NCBI RefSeq assembly: GCF_038025025.1
Contig: NW_027117346.1
Location: 1,488,001-1,552,000 of the forward strand
Direction: 5' to 3'
From: Phyllosticta citribraziliensis
Lineage: Eukaryota
Length of the DNA stretch: 64,000 bases
The notes beneath the pieces were generated by a model. That model made no database searches. It had not been told where the DNA came from and saw only the letters and a list, made by a program, of their open reading frames with translations. A program made the translations under genes and the position numbers. Shown one piece after another: positions 46,659 through 63,740 of this stretch (positions within the stretch are counted from its first letter, which is position 1; each line of letters begins with the position of its first letter).

Positions 46659-48621
46659 TCACTCCACCACAATCTCGACGCCGGACTGGGAAGAGAGCTC
46701 ATCGCTGCCGCGGCCATGGTGGCCGTTTTGTCTGGTCCGCGAAAAGCCGGAGCCGCGCTCGGGAATGGGACCGCGCGGCTGGCGAGTGGGCAAGCCCTGG
46801 CTGCGGTCGCGGTTCTGTTCATTCTCGTAGTTGGTGCTGAAAGATCTGTGGCTGCCAATCGGACCGGGATTCCTGTCCGAATCCCAAGAGACCATGCCGC
46901 GCAAGCCGCGGGGGCTGCCGCTCTGGCCAAAGCCGCCGCCGAGGTTCATGTTGCTGAGGCCATTGACGAGCAAGTTGTCCTCCTTGCCGAGCGTGGCGGT
47001 CGGCGTCAGGCTAGGGTTGGTCGATGAGGAGCTGTGTCCATAATCCTGGTACCTGTTAATGTTGCCACTGAGCGTCGCCGGGAAGCTGGCAGTGGAAGGT
47101 ACCGGAGAAGGCGTGTAGGAGCGCAGGTCGGCGTACGACTTTGCAGCTCTGAGATTCGGTGCAGCTGTAAGACCACCACCCGGCGAATCGGGAAAACCTA
47201 GCAGGCCGGACGACTGGCGACCGAGAGTGCCGCCGTAAAAGTTCTCGCGCACGTCGCTAAAGTCCGTCGTGGCAGCGCGGTTGAGACCGCGGCGCTGGGC
47301 ATCGAGGGGATGGCTAGTCGGCGCCATCTGGGGCATCGGGGGGCTCGTGTTGGGGTCTCCGTACTTGTAGACGTGCACCTGGCGCGAGTCACCCATGCCT
47401 TTGGAGCTGTGCGACAGGCCCATAGTATGGGCAATCGTGTGGCAGATGCGGCGCTGGGCAGGCGTGAGGGTCGAGGGAAAGACGAGCACCTCGCGGTTGG
47501 GGTCCTCCTTGAACAAGAGGAGCTGCGAGTAGAATTGGAGGTGCTGGGGGTCGTTCATGTCTACCTCTGTTCCGGCGTTGTTAGCCCACGAAGGGCCAGT
47601 CATGACGTCCAACTCACCAGGCTTCCTACCATTGACGGGTGATGGAGAAGCGGCCGACTGGACGTGAGACGACATGGAGGACAGCGAGGGCTGGGTGTGA
47701 AGCTGCGAGGAAGGCAAAGGCCGGTGCTGCTCCTCCAGCTGACCCCGGCGCTCCCTCTTCTCACGCTCAATGCGCTCCCTCTCTGCCAGCGGAAGCATCT
47801 TCTTGTACTCGACGCGGAGCTTGCGGCCTTGCAGCTCAAAGTGGTTCATGGTCTCGATGACGGCCGCAGTCTCTTCGGGAGTGGTAAAGTTGGCAAAGGC
47901 CAGGCCGCGAAAGACGCCATTGTCAAAGTGATAGTTGAAGGCGTAGGGCAGCGGCAGGCGAAGGTCGGTCATGAGCTGCACGAGCTGCTCCTTTTTGACG
48001 GCAAACGGTATATTCTTGATGACGATGGCGGTGGGGATGAGCTCCTCGTCGGCGTCTGTCGAGCTGTAGGGGTCGGGGCGGCCCATCTGTCCCTGAGCAA
48101 TGCCCTGCGGCAGGTTTTGGCCGAGGCCGTGGTGCTGGCCGATTCCGAGCGACGACGCTCCGAGGCCAGAAAAGGCGTTGGAAACGTTTGGCAGAGGCGG
48201 CTGCTGGTCGAGCCACGGCTGTAGAGTTGCGAGTCAGCAGGCGGATGAAGCAGAGTTTGTCCGAGCAACTTACCGAAGGCAGAGCAGAGCGCGCGCGAGA
48301 CGAGGGCTTCATCCTCGTGGTCGCGTTGAGGGCGGCCAGGCCGTTGCTGCCGGCAAAGGCGTTGGCGTTCCATCCCTGGGCGCCGCCCAGTTCGTAGCCA
48401 GTGTAGCCGGCGTGGATGGTCGCGTTGAGCCTATCGTTGTAGCGCGACGAGTCGTAGCGCGTTTGGTGGTCGTCCTGGGGGTAGAGGCCCGAGTTGAGCT
48501 GGCCGTAGGCGTCAAACTGGCGCGAGGGCTGGCGGTGCAGTGTTTGCGGCTGATGACGATGCGAGCCCGGCGAGCGGGATGATTGATTCTCGTAATACAT
48601 GTCGTGGGAATGACTGGTCAT
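46659..48621 (-). CDS. RRM + R3H RNA-binding protein (Pin4/Cip2-like)
   Basis: Exons 48621-48274, 48218-47618 and 47566-46659. Motifs IPTAIVIKNIPF...PYAFNYHFDNGVFRGLAFANF...GRKLRVEYKK and R3H QRRICHTIAH. Confidence 0.93.
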
Positions 48622-51199: not shown

Positions 51200-51800
51200 C
51201 TAGGCCTCCATCAGGTTCTTCTTGCCCTTCTTTTGTTCCACCTTGAGCAGCAGTGCGCGGTTGATGTGCGGCAGGACACCTCCAAAGGCGATGGTAGCGC
51301 GGATGAGTGTGTCGAGTTCCTCGTCGCCGCGGATGGCCAGTTGCAAGTGGCGTGGCGTGATGCGCTTGACTTTGAGGTCTTTGGCGGCGTTTCCTGCCAA
51401 CTCGAGTACTTCGGCAGTCAAATATTCGAGGACAGCGGTGAGGTAGACGGCGGCCTTGGCTCCGATGCGCGTACGCTGGCGCGTAATGTTGCGAAGGTGA
51501 CGCTTGATGCGACCGCAGGGGAACTGTGCAGCGTCTATCGTCAGCTCTGTGCGATGGTGAAGCCCGCATACGTGATGAGAAATGCGTGTCGTGACGTGGC
51601 GCGTCGACTTGGGGACCGTGATAGCCTTACCTGGAGCCCGGCCTTTGCGGAGTGCGACTTGGTAGTCTTGACTTGGGAGTCTCCGCCCTTGCCACCAGTC
51701 TTGCCGCCAGTTTTGCCTGTGAAGCGCAACAAAATAGACGCGTTAGCCGTTGCATCAGCCCTCGCAAGACGCGATTTTGCTCACCTTTTCCGCCCGGCAT
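51200..51800 (-). CDS. HTZ1: Histone variant H2A.Z
   Basis: Exons 51800-51785, 51716-51631 and 51523-51200 give MPGGKGKTGGK...[14 protein letters not shown]...[59 protein letters not shown]. Confidence 0.97.
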
Positions 51801-54485
51801 TATTGTCGTTGGATATCAAGTGCAAGTTGAAATGGGTCAGGTCGATCAATGCGATCCTAGGAATGGAAGTTTGGTAATGGAAGCTTTTCGTGGTGCGGGG
51901 CGGGAGGTGGTGGTCGTGGACGTGGTTGGTACGGCTCGATTGTGAAGACGCGAAGTGGCAGCCACGGCTAGGTAAGGTAGGAATTCACCTCAGAGTCATG
52001 GCACGTGACATCAAAGGCAGCATTCCACAGCGCGACAAAGGCAACAAGACGTGCTACGAATTGTTCTGAAAGACGTCAGCCGATATCAAGTCCGTTGTCC
52101 ATACTCTGCCTGGTTGGCCAACGGCATTTTTTTGCCGGTCGCCGCGCCCGAGTCCAGCCAGTCACGTGCCCTTGCAGGAGAGCTCGAGACCCGATGTGCT
52201 CGCATTGGCTTGGTTGAGCAAATCGTCCGGTTAGAGCTGAGTAGCTTACTATTTGGTTCGCAGTTGCATGGAGCATGTAGATCAAGAAGCCTTTGTAAGC
52301 CAAATACTTGATCTCGCCCGTGAAGTCCCTTGGACGTTGACATGGCTGCGAAGGCGGCGGTTTGTCACGGCCATGGCCAAGGCATTAGCGGCAAGACAGC
52401 CCCGTCAGCTTCTCAAGTAGTCTGGAACAGGATGTCAGAGATGGACTTGAGCAGGTTTAGCATGTACAGTAGGTGCCAAAGCTTACCTTGGGTTTGGCTG
52501 GCTTCGTTGCTTTCAGTGTCGACAGTCTCGCCGCATGTCAAGACTCTGTCTCGAGCAATTTGCATGCAAGCAGCCGTGGAGGGCGCAATGGCAGCGCAGC
52601 ATGATTGTAACTGGGCATCTCTGAGGACAGCAAAGGTCGTAGCAGCAACACAGCCGCGGTTTGAGGATGCGGCCAACCTTGAGCTTGCAGTCCATCTGTT
52701 CTGGCGTTGGTAGACCTGAGAGCCACTGAGCCATGTCGGAGCACTCGTCGCCGGCCTCCGGACCAACGTCATGCCCTCGGCTCCCTGCCACGCCCGCACT
52801 GCTCCAGACTGGTCCTCCGCAACATCCATCATCCAGCTCTTGCGCCTCCTGATCTGCCGCCTGGACTCGCCGCTCTGCAATATCGCGACAATTTCGCTCC
52901 GGTCCAAGAATGGGCTTTGCTGCTCCCGTGCCGCTGATGGGCTTCGAGGCGAATCCTCCAGCCTGCCGCTGCTATCTGAACCTGGCCGCCGCATACCAAC
53001 GTGTCCACTGAACATCCTGATTCTTGCTAACGATTTATGGCTGCCAATGGTCTGCAGTGCGCGACTTTTGATCCATCTAGTCCTCTTGGAGCAAGCCAAT
53101 CTGCCATCTGTTGCCATGCCGGCGTGCCAGAATCTCTCCGCGAAGTGTGGTCCCCTGAGCTCGGCAGGCTAACCAGTACTGCGGCGCTGGTGGCACAGCT
53201 GCAAAAAACGGCTGCCGAGTCCTCAAGTGCTTGGTCTACCTGGAAACAGTAAAGCTCCCTCTGAACTTCTCCTCGGATTGACTTCTACATGGCCGCTACT
53301 TGGATGCGATTCACCACTTCTCAATGAATCCCGTGACGGACCAACGGCAGCGGAGCCTCACATTTCTATCCTTATTTGTTCTGTGTTGCAACAAAAGCCG
53401 TAAAGGTTGTCTCCACTGTGGCACGCGTGTGCTTTGCGTGGGAGATTTGGGAAGCATTCCTCAGTATCCACAAGTTTTTGTGGCTGCGGATTCTGTCTAA
53501 TTCTGCTCTCGGTTGACATCCGATTGGGTTCCCTGTCGCCAGTCGGTCTATCCACTGCCGTGGCAGCGTCGCTTTCGCAATCGTACGCCGTACACGTAGC
53601 GACAGAAGATCAAGCACGTCATATGTAAGATCAGACGGCAAGGGCGGGAGGATGTATGGCTCTTGAAGAGCTTCCACGTGGGCGAGATGGCATTCTTGAA
53701 CATTAACAGTGGTAGCTCGGTTGCAGTCTATTGAGTTTTGGATGGGCCAGCGGTCTGGATGCTTCCACTGCGCTGGGTCGAACGGCTTGCCCAAGGCCGG
53801 GCTTGCCCAAAGGAGCCAAGGGTCCAGTGGAGTCTTGGTCGAGGAACGGGTAGAGTTGCACTGCGGATGGGAAGAATGGGAGTCGACGTCGCGCCGTCCC
53901 GCCAAAACCACCCATCACCCCGCAAGTCCCAGTGGGTCGGGAGCAGGTCCGAAGATGCAATGCCACAGAGGAAGCGGGACTCGGCTGGGGCGTTACTGCA
54001 AGCAGTCTAGCATGACTTTGATCATCTCGCATCCCGTCAGGTCGGTCACATCTGCCAGTCAGTGTCAGGTCGGCACTCGAGTGCAGCCGTGGTTCAGTCC
54101 CAGTCGTCGCGGCTCCGGGCCGCCTGGCTTGGTTGTCTCTGCGCCCTGGAGCACGGAGCAGCCCAAGGATTCAGACCACGGCATCAGCTCACCGACCTCT
54201 GTCTTCCACGGCATGACAAACGGTATCGCTGACTGGCAACTTGACCGCCAACCCGTGCAAGCCCAATTGTAATTTTCATGGCCTCAGACCGGTGCGCCGC
54301 TGATGACTCAGGTCGTTGCTCCACCACCTGCGGCAAATTCGCCCTACGCGTCTCTTAGGCCGCCGCCTCCATCCCCGTCAACACGCTCTGTAAACAAACT
54401 GGCTCCCCTTTTTTTCGATACCGGCATACCATGGTGGGTCGACGTGACTCTCCACTGTCCACCGTCTCCATGTCGCCGTCCTTAC

Positions 54486-54491
54486 TATAAA
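54486..54491 (+). promoter_or_regulatory. Candidate TATA box
   Basis: TATAAA about 155 nt upstream of ATG 54643, followed by a pyrimidine-rich stretch. Confidence 0.45.
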
Positions 54492-54642
54492 GCCGCCTCG
54501 TCGGTCCGGTGCATGTCGCGCATCATCCTGTCTCCCCCAGTGCCCTTTTTTGCTCCCCGCCGCATCCTCTCCAATACATCCTCTCAAGTGCCATTCGCGA
54601 CGAGTCGCAAAGCTTCAGCTAGCGCGACTGGGCGCCCGCAAC

Positions 54643-56186
54643 ATGGTGCGTATCCGCTGCTCGATCCAAGGCCTACCTTTTTGCTAATTCTGCGACAGGC
54701 TTCCAGCGCCGTTTCCACGTTCCCGCAGCAAGTGGCCAAGATGCTCTCCCGAAAGAGCGTCGCCATTCCAATCGCCGCAGGCTCAATCATCCTCTTCCTC
54801 CAATGGCGCAAGAGGAGGTCGCAGACGTCGTGGCTCAAGTCGAGCCAGCCGGAACAAACGCCCGAGTCGCAAAAGCCACACGACGAGACCAAACCCGTGG
54901 AAGCGCGGAGCAAAGAGACGGAGGCGACTGCAGATCATACGACTGTCCCGCAGGCACGCCTTTGGTCTTCGCAGGAAGAGCTTGGGACCGCGTACCTGAA
55001 CGCCAAAAGACCGCGCCTAGATACCGGCGAGGGCGTTCGCCAGGCCCCCACGGATGAGAAGCCATATATGGAAGTCCGAACGGATTCTTTCCTTCCCGTG
55101 CTGGATATATCCTCGCCAGCGCCCACGCCAGCCTCCCGCCGCGAGTCGCGTCGCGAATCCATTCAGGTTGACACTACGGTTCAACTCACGTACGAGACGG
55201 CACCATGGCCAGGCAGCGCCGGGATGGCTCCGACCTTTTCGACGATTGTCGAGGCCGCGGAAGCGGAACCGCTGTCGGCGGCTTCTTCCATCTTTTCCAA
55301 CCCGTTCAAGGACGAGACTTCGGCAGTGCCCACGCCAGACACGTCGTTTGGCGACTTCAACTTTGGCCGGCGCGACACCCTCACGCCGAACAACGACGCC
55401 CGCTTCGCGCGCAAGCAGTCTATCCAGGTCGACACCATCGTGGAACACTCGGTAGAGACGACAGAGGCCGATGTGAAGCCCTGGGTTGAGACTGTCGTTC
55501 ATGCGACTGGATCCACCCCGGGCAGCGACGAGGACGACGAGGACGAGGCAAACATGGGCGTCGAGCTGCCGCCCCATGAGGCCTTTGGCCGCCGCCAGTC
55601 AATTCAAGTAGATACAGTTGTTTCGCGCACCGTATCTCCCGCGCCTCCATCCAGCGACTCCATCCCTCGCGTCGAAAGCATTGTCGAAGCGGACGCCTAT
55701 CTCGACCCCCTGGACCCCCTGGCACCCACGCCTCTGCAGCCCCCTCAACTCAAAGTCGACACGCCGCAGGACACAGCATCGCCAGCGCTGTCGGCAGCGC
55801 GCTCGTCCGACGCCGAGCTGGACCCGCTCTCGCCGCTGCCGCCGTCGTCGACGTCGCCGCTGAGCACCAGCAACCACAACAGTCTGCTCGCGCAGCCGCC
55901 CGTGGACCGCCTCGTCCACGTCTACAGCGACGACGACGCCCCGCTCAAGCACCTGCCCGGCATGGGCGTGCCCAACAGCGCGCGCGACGCCCTCGTCATG
56001 CGCGTGCGCCAGCACTCGGTCGCCGACGCCGTCGTGGAGGCCGAGGAGGCCCTGGACGATGCCCGCAGCCGCGAGGGCCTCGTCGCTGTGCTTGAGGGCG
56101 CGGTGGCGCCGCCACCCAGGGAGCCCGTGGGCGCTGTCGTCCCTGAGCGCGAATGGCTGCCTGGCTTTGGCGTGCCGAACGCTTGA
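54643..56186 (+). CDS. Uncharacterised ~496-aa protein: N-terminal hydrophobic anchor, disordered acidic body, 3x SIQVDT repeats
   Basis: ATG-only first exon (54643-54645), intron 54646-54698 (GTGCGT..GCTAAT..CAG), then in frame with ORF 54303-56186. Hydrophobic VAIPIAAGSIILFLQW is followed by RKRR. Confidence 0.8.
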
Positions 56187-57159: not shown

Positions 57160-57770
57160 TCACGCGTCGCCCCAGGCGCCGCGGATGCGTCGTGCCAGCT
57201 GGATGTCCTTTTGCATAATGGTGACGCGCTTGGCGTGGATGGCGCAGAGGTTGGTGTCTTCGAAGACGCCGACAATGTACGCCTCGGCGGCTTCCTGGAG
57301 CGCGCCAATTGCCGACGACTGCCAGCGCAGAGACTCGCCTGGGGGTATCATGTTGTGGGCGATTTCGCGAACCTGGCGGGGGGAGAAAAGACGTCAGCGC
57401 CGTCGTTTGAGCACGGGGGCGATTTTTGCTGCGGAGCTGGGACTTACGAGGCGCGCAAACGGGAGCTTGCGGAGTAGCAGGTCCGTCGTCTTTTGGTAGC
57501 GTTTGATTTCCCTGAGAGCCACGGTGCCGGGCTTGTAGCGCGTCTGCTTCCTGGGTGTGGGGTCGCCGGCTGTGGGGCAGTCAGTCACTTAGTTCTGGGG
57601 AGGGCCGCAGGAGCGATTGATGGGGAGGCGTATTTACGCTGGGCACCGGATGACCTGCGTCTCTTTGGGGTCGTCGCTGCGGCGGATCCAGTCGATTTGC
57701 GCGGTCCTTTGCCGCCGGTGGACTTGCGGCCGGTGGAGTGTCGGCCTCCTCTGGTGGGTTTGGGCGGCAT
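57160..57770 (-). CDS. CSE4: Centromeric histone H3 variant CENP-A
   Basis: Exons 57770-57638, 57569-57448 and 57372-57160 give a divergent basic tail, [43 protein letters not shown], a longer loop 1 with LRWQSSAI (W replacing the H3 F), and [16 protein letters not shown]. Confidence 0.93.
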
Positions 57771-58370
57771 TTCTGTTGCTCAAAGAATAGATTGGCTCGA
57801 GCGGCGCGATCTGAGACGCGTTGATTGCGCTGTTTGTAGGCAATGGGTGGTCGCAATGGCTGGAGTTGGGCAGCTGTCGCGAGCGCGTCAGAGCGCGTTG
57901 TTGATGAGCCAAAGACGACCAACGGGCGGGGAAAAAGCGGCAAGGGCCAATTGGAGTCGAGGCGGGGTTGTAACGGGAGTTGAGGGGCTGCGGCGAGGCC
58001 TCTGTCCGGCAACCTGAGGGTTTCGGTCGTGGTGGATGTACACAAAGCGAATAACTGGGAGGTTGGGATGGATGGATCTGATGCGTGCGACGGCAGGGAT
58101 GAGCTAATCTTAGCGGCCTTGCGGCTTGGTGGGCAGGCAGGGCACTTGTGGCTTATCTCCGCGCCTCCGCATCGCTACAGTCCACGTTTGTTTCTTCCAT
58201 CATCTTAGCTACATGTAGATATCCACAACATCTACGTACCTCACATACAGATCGCTCCCCTCGAAGTTCCTCGCCGCCTCGTCCACCTCTTTACCTGCCT
58301 CGTCCAACTCTTTCCGCTCGCTTCCGCCGCCTACCTCACGCTTCACTCCAACTGCCGTCCATCCGCCGCC

Positions 58371-59220
58371 ATGGCCGGAATGCTTGGGCCCGGTGAGGGC
58401 ATGATGGGACAGTTTCCGCTCGAACAGTGGTTCTACGAGCTGCCCGTCTGCACTCGCTGGTGGACGACCATAACTGTGGTTCTGAGCGTGCTCGTCCAGT
58501 GCCACGTCGTCTCTCCCTTTCAGCTCTTCTACAGCTTCCGCGCTGTCTACTTCAAAAGCCAGGTTCGCTTGTGATAACGCAGGCATTGTTTGTTGTACTG
58601 ACAAGACATTGTAGTATTGGCGCATTCTTACCACATTCTTCTACTTCGGCCCTCTCAGCTTGGACCTATTGTTCCACGTCTTCTTCCTTCAGCGCTATTC
58701 ACGCCTCCTAGAAGAAGGCTTTGGCAGGTCGCCCGCGCACTTTTCATGGCTCCTTGCCTTTTCCTCTGCCGTACTCCTCATCATCGGGCCGTGGTTCTCC
58801 ATGGGTTTCCTCGGGTCCGCCCTTAACAGCGTACTGGTCTACATCTGGAGTAGGAAGAATCCGGACACCAACTTGAGCTTTTTGGGGCTGGTTGTCTTCA
58901 AAGCGCCGTTTCTGCCGTGGGTGCTCGCCTTGTTCAGCATGGCTGTCCATGGCTCAGTACCCAAGGACGACTTGTGTGGCATCATCATTGGGCACCGTAA
59001 GCCGAACCCTCACCAACGGGCCTCTTCGTGATAGCTGACATTTGCAGTGTGGTACTTTTTCAACGATGTGTACCCTCCGATGAACCGTGGCTCTCGTCCG
59101 TTGGATCCGCCCTCGTGGTGGATCCGTCTTTGGGAAGGTCGGCCAGCCAACGAAGACAACACACCCGCTGGACCCATCGACCACGGCATTGCTGCCGTAC
59201 CTGCTCCAGAAATAAGATGA
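58371..59220 (+). CDS. DER1: Derlin (ERAD membrane protein)
   Basis: Exons 58371-58562, 58615-58996 and 59048-59220. Motifs P.CTRWW, QYWRILTTFFYFG, RYSRLLEE, YIWSRKNP, APFLPWV and GHLWYFFNDVYP. Confidence 0.95.
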
Positions 59221-62065: not shown

Positions 62066-63740
62066 ATGATCACTACTTCGCGTCTCGCCTCCCTGGCAGC
62101 TGCTTTTGTCACTGTGAGACACGCTTCTGCTGGATTCAATCCGTCCTCGAAGAACAATGTCGCCGTCTATTGGGGTTTGTGATGTTCGTGGTTGGTGAAG
62201 CAATAATGACTGACTGGCTGCAGGGCAAAACTCTCATGGGAGGGGAGGTGATGATCCTGAGGCTCAGAAGAGACTGGCTTATTACTGTGCAAGTATGATC
62301 CACCGTGGCACTGATCAAGCACGGCGAAGCTGACCAACGTGACCACAGATTCCGACATCGATGTACGCAAACTTTGAAGTCTTCTTGTTTCCATCTGACT
62401 CTCATTTAGGTCATCCCCATGGCTTTCATGACAAAGATTGGCGGCGCCGATGCCCTGCCGGAGTTGAATTTTGCAAACCAAGGAGACCCGTGCGGCATGT
62501 TCGATGGGACAAACTTGAAGAACTGTCCCCAGATTGCGTGAGCTTCCCCTGACACTGCCTTTGATCCAGCTGCTGATGTTCCTCCAGTGAAGACATTGTA
62601 ACATGTCAAGAGCAGTACGGAAAGACGATACTTTTGTCGATTGGAGGTGCTACATATACCGAGGGAGGATTCCAAAGCGAATCCGCCGCTGTCACTGCAG
62701 CCAACAAAGTTTGGGACATTTTCGGCCCCTATAATTCGGGAAGCAGTGCCCTCCGGCCCTTTAATAACTCTGCAGTTGACGGGTTCGACTTTGATTTCGA
62801 GTCTACTGTCCAGAACATGGTACCCTTTGTGCGACAGCTGCGCACTCTTGTGGATTCCGCGTCTGATGGAAAGAAGCGTTACCTCACTGCAGCACCACAG
62901 TGCCCATACCCTGACGCCGCAGACCAGCAATTTCTCGACGCCGTCGGAATGGACGCCGTCTTTGTGCAGTTTTACAACAACTACTGCGGCGTGCAGTCGT
63001 ACAGCCCGGGATCGAGCCAACAGAACAACTTCAACTTTGACACCTGGGACAAGTGGGCCACGCAGACTTCGCCCAACAAGAACGTCAAGGTCTTTCTTGG
63101 GATTCCGGCCAGCTCGACGGCTGCTGGAAGCGGTTACCTGGAGCCGACGGCCCTCGCGCCCGTCATTTCGTACGTCAAGAACTTTTCGAGCATGGGTGGC
63201 GTCATGATGTGGGATGCCAGTCAGGCGCTCTCCAACAAGGACTTCCTGGCGCAGGTCGCAGGCGAGCTTGACACTTCGTCAGCGCAATCCACGTCTGCTG
63301 CCACTAGCGCTGTGGCTTCCAGCACGGGGACAAGCAGCTCGGCCTCGCAGCGCTCCACCGGCGTCTCGTCCTCTTTGTCGTCCTCGGCGGCGTCCAGGAG
63401 CAGCGCCGCTTCGACCCTCGTCACAAGCGTGCGCAGCTCCTCCCTCACCTCGTCTTCTTCGGTTGCTGCCCCGTCCTACGACGCGCCTCCCGTCACCAGC
63501 CAACCGCAGCAAATTCTCTCTCGCGCCACGGACGCTCCGTCTGAGGCTGCCAGGTCGGGATATGGAATCAGCAGTGGCAGCAGCAGCAGCGTTGTACCCG
63601 CCTCCTCGATCCAGGCAGTGCTGCCCCCTTTCCACCATGGCCCGCCTCCGCCTATGCGCTCTTCTTCTTCCACAAGAGGCAAGCCGCATCGCTTTGTCTG
63701 CGAGGAGATCGTCGACGATGATGCCGGCGAAGCGGCTTAG
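62066..63740 (+). CDS. Secreted GH18 class III (Cts1-like) chitinase with Ser/Thr-rich tail
   Basis: MITTSRLASLAAAFVTVRHASAGFNPSSKNNVAVYWG|QNS, several small exons, then ILLSIGGA, intact DGFDFDFE catalytic motif, TAAPQCPYPD, VQFYNNYC and GGVMMWD. Confidence 0.95.

What the first reader, a model, noticed from the sequence alone, without database searches (positions are those of the whole stretch)
54643..56186. Uncharacterised membrane-anchored disordered protein with three RRxS-IQVDT motifs: candidate PKA-gated multivalent dynein light chain (LC8/Dyn2) scaffold
Seen: RRESIQVDTTV (SIQVDT at 55158-55175), RKQSIQVDTIV (55419-55436) and RRQSIQVDTVV (55599-55616). Each is followed about 15-20 residues later by a second sub-motif (PTFSTIVEA, PWVETVVHA, PRVESIVEA), and a degenerate fourth unit exists (RQHSVADAVV). 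The SIQVDT copies are identical in protein but differ at most third codon positions (TCC ATT CAG GTT GAC ACT / TCT ATC CAG GTC GAC ACC / TCA ATT CAA GTA GAT ACA), which points to selection on the peptide and not a recent DNA duplication. Established: GIQVD is one of the two classical LC8-binding motifs (nNOS-type); multivalent LC8 sites occur in disordered scaffolds such as Nup159; [RK][RK]xS is the PKA consensus. Inference: a signal-anchored organelle protein (hydrophobic segment + RKRR, as in mitochondrial outer-membrane anchors) whose LC8-driven dimerisation is switched by phosphorylation of the Ser inside each motif. I recognise no family for it.
Basis: partly seen in the sequence, partly recalled or inferred. 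Interest (0 to 1): 0.75.

Follow-up and report, generated by a model that had tools for sequence, protein, structure and literature searches.

The report
Membrane-anchored disordered protein with SIQVDT repeats
A gene found only in Phyllosticta fungi encodes a membrane-anchored, unstructured protein with three strictly conserved kinase-site-plus-SIQVDT motifs that look partly like dynein light chain LC8 binding sites, but LC8 binding could not be tested here.

Summary
A two-exon gene (ATG 54643-54645, 53-nt intron, exon 54699-56186) encodes a 496-aa protein. It has one N-terminal hydrophobic segment followed by RKRR. It has three R-[RK]-x-S-I-Q-V-D-T-x-V cores at the stated coordinates, each followed by a [FV]-x-[ST]-[IV]-V-x-A element.

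The three SIQVDT copies differ at 4, 5 and 6 of 6 third codon positions and at no first or second position. Relatives were found in three other Phyllosticta species (80-97% identity). One unnamed partial protein shares only the anchor. No Pfam family matches. AlphaFold2 predicts disorder, with no hairpins.

The tail is enriched in basophilic-kinase sites: 7 R-x-x-S/T-hydrophobic sites against 1.04 expected.

The IQVD anchor equals the nNOS/GKAP/DNMT3A class of LC8 motifs. The flanks do not fit: R or K at position -4 occurs in 0 of 79 published binders and 2 of 32 non-binders. My rough recomputation of the published LC8Pred amino-acid score gives 5.7-8.1 against a threshold of 12.9.

Verdict: a genus-restricted, membrane-tethered, multi-phosphosite disordered protein. 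LC8 is the only named candidate reader, at about 0.2 probability. Interest is modest.

The parts
54643..54645 (+). Exon 1: start codon only
   Evidence: ATG followed by GTGCGT. The spliced product starts MASSAVSTFPQQ, like the P. citrichinensis model P0003.
54646..54698 (+). Intron, 53 nt (GTGCGT...CTAAT...CAG)
   Evidence: Read directly. Supported only by the annotated N-termini of relatives.
54699..56186 (+). Exon 2 with stop TGA (56184-56186); the whole protein is 496 aa
   Evidence: GC by codon position is 0.67/0.52/0.76. In-frame indels only among four Phyllosticta orthologues.
54759..54806 (+). Single hydrophobic segment VAIPIAAGSIILFLQW (residues 22-37), the predicted signal anchor
   Evidence: Highest 19-residue Kyte-Doolittle mean is 1.53 (next best outside residues 1-50 is 0.70). 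AF2 helix. Invariant in four species, and shared with partial protein P0006.
54807..54818 (+). RKRR directly after the anchor
   Evidence: Net charge is +5 in the 15 residues after the segment and +3 in the 21 before it.
55077..55091 (+). RTDSF, a further R-x-x-S-hydrophobic site
   Evidence: Invariant block.
55149..55181 (+). Repeat 1 core RRESIQVDTTV (Ser155), preceded by a second RRES
   Evidence: Invariant in 4 of 4 species.
55230..55256 (+). Repeat 1 second element PTFSTIVEA
55299..55313 (+). NPFKD, which fits the NPFx(1,2)D endocytic signal read by Sla1
   Evidence: Invariant in 4 of 4 species. Arises in 198 of 50000 shuffles. Motif definition from the title and abstract listing of PMC2199253.
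55362..55382 (+). FGRRDTL, an R-R-x-T-hydrophobic site that shares FGRR with repeat 3
   Evidence: DNA repeat D6 (55361-55373 / 55583-55595).
55410..55442 (+). Repeat 2 core RKQSIQVDTIV (Ser242)
   Evidence: Invariant in 4 of 4 species.
55479..55505 (+). Repeat 2 second element PWVETVVHA
55527..55547 (+). Acidic stretch DEDDEDE within a poorly conserved linker between repeats 2 and 3
   Evidence: Only 28% of columns are invariant in the linker, against 83-93% in the repeats.
55590..55622 (+). Repeat 3 core RRQSIQVDTVV (Ser302)
   Evidence: Invariant in 4 of 4 species.
55665..55691 (+). Repeat 3 second element PRVESIVEA (itself an R-x-x-S-I site)
55953..56042 (+). Most conserved C-terminal block: LPGMGVPN ... 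RVRQHSVADAVVEA (the degenerate fourth unit, R-x-R-x-x-S-V)
   Evidence: The wider block, residues 389-432 in P0002 numbering, is 98% invariant. Coordinates.
56157..56180 (+). C-terminal LPGFGVPN, a second copy of the LPG[MF]GVPN element
   Evidence: Invariant.

Best explanation
This is a real two-exon gene restricted to Phyllosticta. It encodes a 496-aa protein held in a membrane by one uncleaved N-terminal signal anchor, with the rest of the chain (about 455 residues) facing the cytosol as an intrinsically disordered tail. The tail is a string of short linear motifs under purifying selection. There are three old composite repeats, each R-[RK]-x-S-I-Q-V-D-T-x-V followed 12-16 residues later by [FV]-x-[ST]-[IV]-V-x-A. 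There are also further R-x-x-S/T-hydrophobic sites, one NPFKD and two LPG[MF]GVPN elements.

Most likely mechanism: the Ser of each core is phosphorylated by a basophilic kinase (PKA or another AGC/CaMK-type enzyme). The same residues, S-I-Q-V-D-T-x-V, form an extended docking peptide for a partner that binds by beta-strand addition, so phosphorylation switches partner binding at three sites on a membrane-tethered scaffold.

The partner is not identified. LC8/Dyn2 is the only named candidate, at about 0.2 probability.

Shown: the gene model by comparison, the repeats, the selection on the peptide, predicted disorder, kinase-consensus enrichment and the restricted distribution. Inferred: topology, phosphorylation, docking and the switch.
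For: Gene and distribution:
- 100/96/91/80% identical proteins were found in Phyllosticta only.
- HMMER over 1.84 billion cluster representatives gave 2 hits at E<=0.001: P. capitalensis, and a 159-aa partial protein matching only residues 1-66.

Selection:
- SIQVDT codons show 0 differences at positions 1 and 2, and 4-6 of 6 at position 3.
- All 33 core residues are invariant in four species against 79% overall. The acidic linker is 28% invariant.

Disorder:
- AF2 mean pLDDT is 31.9. The only helices are the anchor and one 9-residue helix. There are no strands.
- The repeat unit alone also shows no secondary structure.

Kinase sites:
- 7 R-x-x-[ST]-hydrophobic sites against a shuffle mean of 1.04 (0 of 20000 shuffles reach 7).
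- 5 R-[RK]-x-[ST] sites against 0.35 (0 of 20000).
- R at -3 is the one basic residue kept in all three cores.

Cytosolic tail:
- More positive charge after the anchor than before it (+5 against +3).
- No Cys and no N-x-S/T sequon in 496 aa.
- An invariant NPFKD.

Docking peptide:
- Conservation extends well beyond what a kinase consensus needs, to Q-V-D-T-x-V.
- IQVD equals the anchor plus +2 residue of three curated LC8 binders.
- Client phosphorylation at or near the anchor is reported to cut LC8 affinity sharply (passage of PMC12017986).
Against: - There is no expression, phosphorylation, localisation or binding data of any kind.
- The orthologues are close (80-97%), so conservation between species is a weak test.
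- The kinase-site enrichment is partly non-independent, because three sites descend from one repeat.
- The topology rests on a small charge difference, and no signal-peptide predictor was run.
- AF2 ran on alignments of 4 and 3 sequences, so a failure to predict a fold is weak evidence of disorder.
- For LC8 specifically: R or K at -4 is in 0 of 79 binders and 2 of 32 non-binders. E at -3 is in 0 of 79. S-I-Q occurs in 3 of 3 I-anchored non-binders and 0 of 7 I-anchored binders.
- The approximate LC8Pred amino-acid score is 5.7-8.1 against the threshold of 12.9.
Confidence: 0.5

Rival explanations
1. The three cores are true LC8/Dyn2 sites of the nNOS (IQVD) type. LC8 dimers zip two tails together on an organelle membrane, and PKA phosphorylation of Ser at -2 releases LC8.
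For: - IQV plus D at +2 is identical to the anchors of DLGAP1, DNMT3A and nNOS.
- R at -5 is in 12 of 79 binders and 0 of 32 non-binders. S at -2 is in 20 of 79 binders.
- The binder MAST1 (RHQSVQTE) is close in pattern.
- Phage display also selects Arg or Lys at -5 (passage of PMC3078936).
- The sites lie in predicted disorder.
- Spacings of 87 and 60 residues resemble the three Bassoon sites (Q positions 1431, 1507 and 1535).
- Phosphorylation at or near the anchor is reported to weaken client binding.
- The true nNOS motif itself scores only 11.0-12.3 in my recomputation, so the 12.9 threshold misses this class. The paper states 20 false negatives.
Against: - R or K at -4 is in 0 of 79 binders. 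The residue there normally H-bonds Thr67 through Asp or Ser.
- The only Q-V-D non-binder, PRFQTQVD, has R at -4.
- E at -3 (repeat 1) is in 0 of 79 binders.
- S-I-Q is seen only in non-binders (3 of 3 I-anchored non-binders).
- The approximate score is 3.5-5.3 units below the nNOS motif.
- The conserved T(+3) and V(+5), and the second element, are not explained by LC8.
- Mitochondrial targeting is untested.
Confidence: 0.2
2. The cores are phospho-dependent docking sites. The phosphorylated R-[RK]-x-pS-I-Q-V motif, not the unmodified one, is what a reader binds (14-3-3, or another phosphopeptide-binding module). Two or three sites give bidentate binding.
For: - R at -3 and a basic residue at -2 before Ser in all three cores, plus four more R-x-x-S/T-hydrophobic sites.
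- 14-3-3 is a dimeric hub that reads such phosphosites and binds two sites at once (passages of PMC12017986).
Against: - There is no Pro at +2.
- Ile at +1 is, as I recall the ELM pattern for canonical 14-3-3 sites, not among the accepted residues. This is recalled and was not checked by any search.
- It does not explain why Q-V-D-T-x-V is held identical.
- No test was run.
Confidence: 0.1
3. The two elements of each unit (SIQVDTxV and VE[ST]IVEA) are paired beta-strands. The units fold on themselves or pair between chains, giving self-association of the tail rather than recruitment of a separate hub.
For: - Both elements alternate hydrophobic and polar residues, and they recur at a fixed distance of 12-16 residues in three units.
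- Conservation of the second element is as high as that of the core.
Against: - AF2 predicts no strand in the whole protein (pLDDT 31.9) or in the isolated unit (pLDDT 67, no secondary structure).
- Pro- and Gly-rich, variable-length linkers separate the elements.
- No known repeat family matches.
- The alignments are shallow, so this is weak evidence.
Confidence: 0.1
4. The hydrophobic segment is a secretory signal. The tail is lumenal or secreted, and the dibasic sites are Kex2 cleavage sites that release peptides beginning [EQ]SIQVDT.
For: - RKRR lies directly after the hydrophobic segment.
- RR lies immediately two residues before SIQVDT in repeats 1 and 3.
- The organism belongs to a genus that includes plant pathogens. 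This is inference only.
Against: - Repeat 2 has R-K, not K-R or R-R, before Q-S-I, and this is invariant in four species. Kex2 needs Arg at P1 (established knowledge, recalled).
- What is invariant is R at -3 from Ser, a kinase feature.
- No small residues sit at -1/-3 at the end of the hydrophobic segment.
- The charge balance favours a cytosolic C-terminus.
- There is no Cys and no glycosylation sequon.
Confidence: 0.05
5. Not a functional gene: an open frame kept open by high G+C content.
For: - The window is G+C rich (0.62 here) and full of overlapping long open frames.
- The frame is open even upstream to 54303.
- There is no RNA evidence.
Against: - A 1.49-kb frame is kept in four species with in-frame indels only.
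- Conservation is block-wise.
- Synonymous-only differences occur between paralogous motif copies.
- Conservation starts sharply at the predicted N-terminus, while the upstream frame is not conserved.
Confidence: 0.03

Closest known systems
Multivalent LC8 (DYNLL/Dyn2) clients with the nNOS-type G-I-Q-V-D motif (nNOS, DLGAP1/GKAP, DNMT3A), and multi-site clients such as Bassoon, ASCIZ and Nup159
   Same: An I-Q-V anchor with D at +2. Small residue at -2 and Arg at -5. Location in a disordered region. Several copies per chain.
   Different: Basic residue at -4 (never seen in the 79 curated binders). E or Q instead of K or R at -3. S instead of G at -2. Conservation continues to +5. An obligatory second element follows. 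The approximate predictor score is far below threshold. Binding is untested.
PKA/AGC basophilic kinase substrate sites (R-[RK]-x-S/T-hydrophobic)
   Same: All three cores, RRES and RRDTL fit the pattern. Three more sites fit R-x-x-S-hydrophobic. The enrichment is strong.
   Different: A consensus match only. The kinase is unknown and no phosphorylation data exist. Conservation goes beyond any kinase consensus.
N-terminally signal-anchored proteins (type III membrane proteins; mitochondrial outer-membrane anchors of the Tom20/Tom70/OM45 kind)
   Same: One short (16-residue), moderately hydrophobic segment near the N-terminus, flanked by basic residues, with the bulk of the protein after it.
   Different: No sequence relation to any of them. 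The target membrane is unknown. NPFKD would fit a plasma-membrane or endosomal itinerary instead.
NPFx(1,2)D endocytic cargo read by the Sla1 adaptor (PMC2199253; title and abstract start seen in the listing)
   Same: An invariant NPFKD in the presumed cytosolic tail.
   Different: A single five-residue match found after the fact (198 of 50000 shuffles, before correction for the many motif classes one could look for). The short anchor is not typical of fungal plasma-membrane proteins (recalled).

Membership tests
LC8/DYNLL client motif | Anchor [T/I/V]-Q-[T/V] at positions -1 to +1 | tested here: met
   I-Q-V in 3 of 3 cores. IQV is the anchor in 3 of 79 curated binders.
LC8/DYNLL client motif | Strand-breaking D/E/P at +2 | tested here: met
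   D in 3 of 3 cores. D at +2 is in 20 of 79 binders and 3 of 32 non-binders. The preference is stated in PMC6607443.
LC8/DYNLL client motif | H-bonding residue (D/S/T, sometimes N/H) at -4 | tested here: not met
   R, K, R. R or K at -4 is in 0 of 79 binders and 2 of 32 non-binders. Asp or Ser at -4 H-bonds Thr67.
LC8/DYNLL client motif | K/R (or aliphatic) at -3 | tested here: not met
   E, Q, Q. E is in 0 of 79 binders. Q is in 4 of 79 binders and 4 of 32 non-binders.
LC8/DYNLL client motif | Lies in an intrinsically disordered, cytosol-exposed region | tested here: inconclusive
   Predicted disorder is met (pLDDT below 50 throughout). Cytosolic exposure is only inferred from charge balance.
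LC8/DYNLL client motif | LC8Pred amino-acid score of at least 12.9 | tested here: not met
   My recomputation gives 5.7-8.1. It uses the published formula and hand counts of Table S4, with approximate background frequencies. The nNOS motif scores 11.0-12.3 on the same scale. The volume/polarity score was not computed.
LC8/DYNLL client motif | Physical or modelled binding in the LC8 dimer groove | not testable with these tools
PKA-type kinase substrate | R-[RK]-x-[ST]-hydrophobic consensus | tested here: met
   5 R-[RK]-x-[ST] sites against 0.35 expected; 0 of 20000 shuffles reach 5.
PKA-type kinase substrate | Observed phosphorylation that depends on the kinase | not testable with these tools
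   No phosphoproteome was consulted or available.
Signal-anchored membrane protein | Single N-terminal hydrophobic segment, not cleaved, flanked by basic residues | tested here: inconclusive
   The segment and its flanks are present and AF2 models a helix. No signal-peptide or topology predictor was available.
Kex2-processed repeat protein | K-R or R-R at every repeat boundary after a cleaved signal peptide | tested here: not met
   Repeat 2 has R-K before Q-S-I in 4 of 4 species.
Any Pfam family or known repeat fold | Significant profile match or confident fold | tested here: not met
   0 Pfam families at E<=1. AF2 gives no fold. No fold search was run, because the models are too poor.

The most novel reading that the evidence does not exclude
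A genus-restricted, membrane-anchored scaffold in which a basophilic-kinase site is built into each of three nNOS-type IQVD motifs. The basic residues sit at -5 and -4, and the phospho-acceptor sits at -2. This would be a previously undescribed LC8 motif variant that is constitutively weak and is switched off site by site through PKA-type phosphorylation. LC8-driven pairing of the tails on the membrane would then become a graded readout of cAMP signalling.
Probability: 0.12. Interest if true: 0.55.

Novelty: new member of a known kind. Interest (0 to 1): 0.3.

Why it matters
If the cores bind LC8, or another beta-strand-capturing hub, and are gated by phosphorylation, the protein would be a clean natural example of a kinase site fused into a hub-binding motif and repeated three times on a membrane tether. 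It would also widen the accepted LC8 motif to include basic residues at -4. It is also a case of a taxonomically restricted gene whose function is carried entirely by short motifs. Such genes are invisible to family-based annotation, and this one lies in a genus that includes citrus pathogens. As it stands, it is an uncharacterised lineage-specific protein with a testable hypothesis, not a demonstrated system.

Tried and rejected
- Pfam scan of the protein: no family.
- Three word-indexed homologue searches (whole protein; residues 120-325; a profile of the three repeat units against longer proteins): only Phyllosticta. One search failed on a parameter limit and was corrected.
- Full HMMER search of 1.84 billion representatives: one further partial protein, matching the anchor only.
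- ESM Atlas, whole protein and repeat region: best score 0.76, then nothing usable.
- Earlier findings of this scan: nothing on this genome or sequence. One unrelated note on a viral LC8-motif microprotein.
- Whole-genome search for the organism's own LC8: no genome is held.
- Docking with LC8:
  - I fished LC8 genes from metagenome contigs.
  - I confirmed one 97-aa full-length Dynein_light protein.
  - I built a 19-sequence alignment.
No verdict exists, and the LC8 sequences were not used further.
- Beta-hairpin fold: AF2 on the full protein and on one unit gave no strands.
- Literature: "SIQVD" occurs in 5 papers, none listed with a relevant title or abstract. "LC8 + IQVD + motif" found 0 papers.
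- Other motif classes were considered by eye from recalled patterns and rejected as inconsistent across the three units: calcineurin PxIxIT, PP1 RVxF, SUMO-interaction motif, Atg8 LIR (fits unit 1 only), PP2A-B56 LxxIxE (fits unit 1 only) and FFAT. None of these was tested by a tool.
- The upstream in-frame open stretch (54303-54698) was rejected as coding, because it is not conserved against P. capitalensis.
Full report
WHAT IS THERE

The region holds a gene on the + strand. An ATG at 54643-54645 is followed directly by GTGCGT. A 53-nt stretch with a CTAAT branch-like site ends in CAG at 54698. From 54699 a frame runs open to the TGA at 56184-56186. Spliced in this way, the product is 496 aa and starts MASSAVSTFPQQVAKMLSRKS.

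The annotated proteins of P. citrichinensis (P0003, 493 aa, starts MASSAVS) and P. capitalensis (P0007, 499 aa, starts MVSTAVS) have the corresponding N-terminus. The same frame is also open upstream to 54303.

G+C by codon position is 0.67/0.52/0.76.

- SIQVDT is encoded three times, at exactly the stated coordinates. These are the only IQVD tetrapeptides in all six frames of the window.
- The three hexapeptides show no differences at first and second codon positions, and 4, 5 and 6 differences out of 6 at third positions.
- No DNA-level direct repeat covers them.
- Each core is followed, 12-16 residues after its end, by PTFSTIVEA, PWVETVVHA or PRVESIVEA.
- The degenerate fourth unit, RVRQHSVADAVVEA, lies in the most conserved block of the whole protein (98% invariant).
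- A 6-mer present three times arose in 1 of 20000 shuffles of the tail.

DISTRIBUTION

- Three word-indexed searches of 5.8 billion proteins found only four clusters. The searches used the whole protein, residues 120-325, and a profile of the three units against longer proteins. The clusters are the window's own protein and those of P. citrichinensis (96%), P. citriasiana (91%) and P. capitalensis (80%).
- A full HMMER pass over 1.84 billion cluster representatives gave 2 proteins at E<=0.001. One is P. capitalensis. The other is a 159-aa partial protein from a 1105-bp unnamed contig, which matches only residues 1-66. That region covers the anchor and RKRK (E 2.4e-4).
- Pfam gives no family at E<=1. 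The ESM Atlas gives nothing above 0.76.
- The gene is therefore detectable only in Phyllosticta. There is a hint that the anchor region is older than the genus.
- The orthologues are close, so cross-species conservation is a weak test, but it is patterned. All 33 core residues are invariant in four species against 79% overall. The acidic linker between units 2 and 3 is 28% invariant, and residues 31-130 are 68% invariant.

ARCHITECTURE

- There is one hydrophobic segment, VAIPIAAGSIILFLQW (residues 22-37). Its 19-residue Kyte-Doolittle mean peaks at 1.53, and the next best elsewhere is 0.70. It is followed by RKRR.
- Net charge is +3 in the 21 residues before the segment and +5 in the 15 residues after it.
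- No small residues sit at the end of the segment for signal peptidase. The protein has no Cys and no N-x-S/T sequon.
- From the positive-inside rule (established knowledge), I infer an uncleaved anchor with the tail in the cytosol. This is inference. No topology predictor was available.
- AlphaFold2 with the four-species alignment gives mean pLDDT 31.9. It shows only the anchor helix and one nine-residue helix, and no strand.
- One repeat unit folded with the other two as its alignment gives pLDDT 67 and no secondary structure.
The alignments are shallow, so this is weak evidence.

KINASE SITES

- Besides the three cores, the tail has RRES just before core 1, RRDTL, RTDSF, RVESI (inside the second element of unit 3) and RQHSV.
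- Counted as R-x-x-[ST]-[ILVMF], there are 7 sites against a shuffle mean of 1.04. None of 20000 shuffles reaches 7.
- Counted as R-[RK]-x-[ST]-not-P, there are 5 sites against 0.35. None of 20000 shuffles reaches 5.
- The three cores share ancestry, so the counts are not fully independent.
- The one basic residue kept in all three cores is R at -3 from the Ser. That marks AGC/CaMK-type kinases. With R or K at -2 and Ile at +1, the cores fit the PKA consensus (established knowledge).
- The same detail argues against Kex2 processing, because unit 2 has R-K rather than K-R or R-R in all four species.

THE LC8 QUESTION

With Q as position 0, the cores read R(-5) R/K(-4) E/Q(-3) S(-2) I(-1) Q(0) V(+1) D(+2). 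I compared this by hand with Table S4 of Jespersen et al. 2019 (PMC6607443), which lists 79 binders and 32 anchor-bearing non-binders.

In favour:
- IQV is the anchor of 3 of 79 binders (DLGAP1, DNMT3A and nNOS, all G-I-Q-V-D).
- D at +2 is in 20 of 79 binders.
- S at -2 is in 20 of 79 binders.
- R at -5 is in 12 of 79 binders and 0 of 32 non-binders.
- The binder MAST1 (RHQSVQTE) has a similar layout.

Against:
- R or K at -4 is in 0 of 79 binders and 2 of 32 non-binders. One of those is the only Q-V-D non-binder, PRFQTQVD.
- E at -3 is in 0 of 79 binders. Q at -3 is in 4 of 79 binders and 4 of 32 non-binders.
- The three non-binders with Ile at -1 all read S-I-Q. None of the seven binders with Ile at -1 does.

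Rapali et al. 2011 (PMC3078936, passages seen) describe Asp or Ser at -4 H-bonding Thr67, a preference for Arg or Lys at -3, small residues at -2, and apolar residues or Arg/Lys at -5.

I applied the published LC8Pred formula and weights (Supplemental Data 1) to my hand counts, with two rough background sets. The amino-acid score is 5.7-7.5 with a disorder-like background and 7.3-8.1 with a uniform one. The nNOS motif scores 11.0-12.3 on the same scale. The published cut-off is 12.9, at which the authors report 20 false negatives.

The cores would therefore not be called by that predictor. They sit 3.5-5.3 units below a true IQVD binder, and the predictor is known to miss this class. The volume/polarity score was not computed, and the background frequencies are approximations, so these numbers are indicative only.

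Conservation of T(+3) and V(+5), and of the second element, is not explained by an eight-residue LC8 motif.

The decisive computation is docking to an LC8 dimer with anchor-mutant controls, as benchmarked in PMC12057147 (abstract and methods read). I prepared it with LC8 genes fished from metagenome contigs, but the complex predictor was not available.

Weighing the improbable coincidence of a conserved IQVD against the never-seen basic -4 residue, I put LC8 binding at about 0.2. If binding occurs, a phospho-switch is plausible. [quoted passage not shown]

MOST LIKELY MECHANISM

I read the protein as a membrane-tethered, disordered, multi-site substrate of a basophilic kinase. The phospho-acceptor lies inside an extended docking peptide, so phosphorylation switches a partner on or off at three sites.

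The partner is unidentified, and LC8 is the only named candidate. Rivals are:
- a phospho-dependent reader such as 14-3-3 (about 0.1);
- pairing of the two elements as strands within or between tails (about 0.1);
- a lumenal, Kex2-processed precursor (about 0.05);
- a non-gene (about 0.03).

OTHER FEATURES OF THE TAIL

An invariant NPFKD lies between units 1 and 2 (55299-55313). It fits the NPFx(1,2)D endocytic signal read by Sla1 (PMC2199253, title and abstract start seen). It arises in 198 of 50000 shuffles, before allowing for the many motif classes one could look for. It would place the tail in the cytosol and the protein on a plasma-membrane or endosomal route, rather than on mitochondria. 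Against that, the anchor is short for a fungal plasma-membrane protein (recalled). The location is open.

Two LPG[MF]GVPN elements and several D-P-L repeats are also conserved and remain unexplained.

CONTEXT

The neighbours give no functional hint. They are:
- an R3H/RRM protein (46662-48233, -);
- histone H2A (51203-51742, -);
- a histone H3 variant (57160-57770, -);
- a Der1-like gene (58209-59028, +);
- a GH18 chitinase (62577-63737, +).

VERDICT

LC8 binding and the organelle assignment are not shown, and the motif flanks argue against strong binding. This is a lineage-restricted protein of a known general kind, of modest interest until a partner is found.

Noticed in passing
window 55299-55313 (+): NPFKD in the disordered tail, invariant in four Phyllosticta species. 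It fits the NPFx(1,2)D endocytic signal recognised by Sla1. It appears by chance in 198 of 50000 shuffles.
   Followed up: partly
window 57160-57351 and 57585-57770 (-): A histone H3-like gene in two open pieces. The C-terminal piece matches solved H3 chains (E 3.8e-25). The N-terminal piece has a tail unlike canonical H3 as I recall it. It may be the centromeric H3 variant; this is my inference.
   Followed up: partly
window 51203-51742 (-): Histone H2A gene (Pfam Histone and Histone_H2A_C). A partner H2B gene may lie next to it but was not looked for.
   Followed up: no
window 58209-59028 (+): A Der1-like (ER-associated degradation) gene split over two open frames, presumably by an intron. 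The Pfam DER1 profile is matched at positions 1-42 and 42-168.
   Followed up: no
window 54303-54698 (+): The frame of exon 2 stays open for 396 nt upstream of the predicted start. One public model (P. citriasiana, 550 aa) uses part of it. It is not conserved against P. capitalensis, so it is probably leader and intron, not coding.
   Followed up: yes
protein P0006 (159 aa, from an unnamed 1105-bp contig): A partial protein from another organism shares only the N-terminal anchor and the basic cluster (52% identity over residues 1-66). The anchor may therefore be older than the genus, while the tail evolves fast. Its DNA could not be fetched.
   Followed up: partly
window 55953-55976 and 56157-56180 (+): Two copies of LPG[MF]GVPN, the second at the extreme C-terminus. 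Both are invariant in four species. No known motif comes to mind.
   Followed up: no
window 55361-55373 and 55583-55595 (+): The only DNA-level similarity linked to the repeats is a 13-nt match (12 of 13) encoding FGRR, before RRDTL and before core 3. This suggests that FGRRDTL is a decayed further copy of the unit.
   Followed up: partly
window 46662-48233 (-) and 62577-63737 (+): An R3H plus RRM RNA-binding protein gene and a GH18 chitinase gene. These are ordinary neighbours.
   Followed up: no
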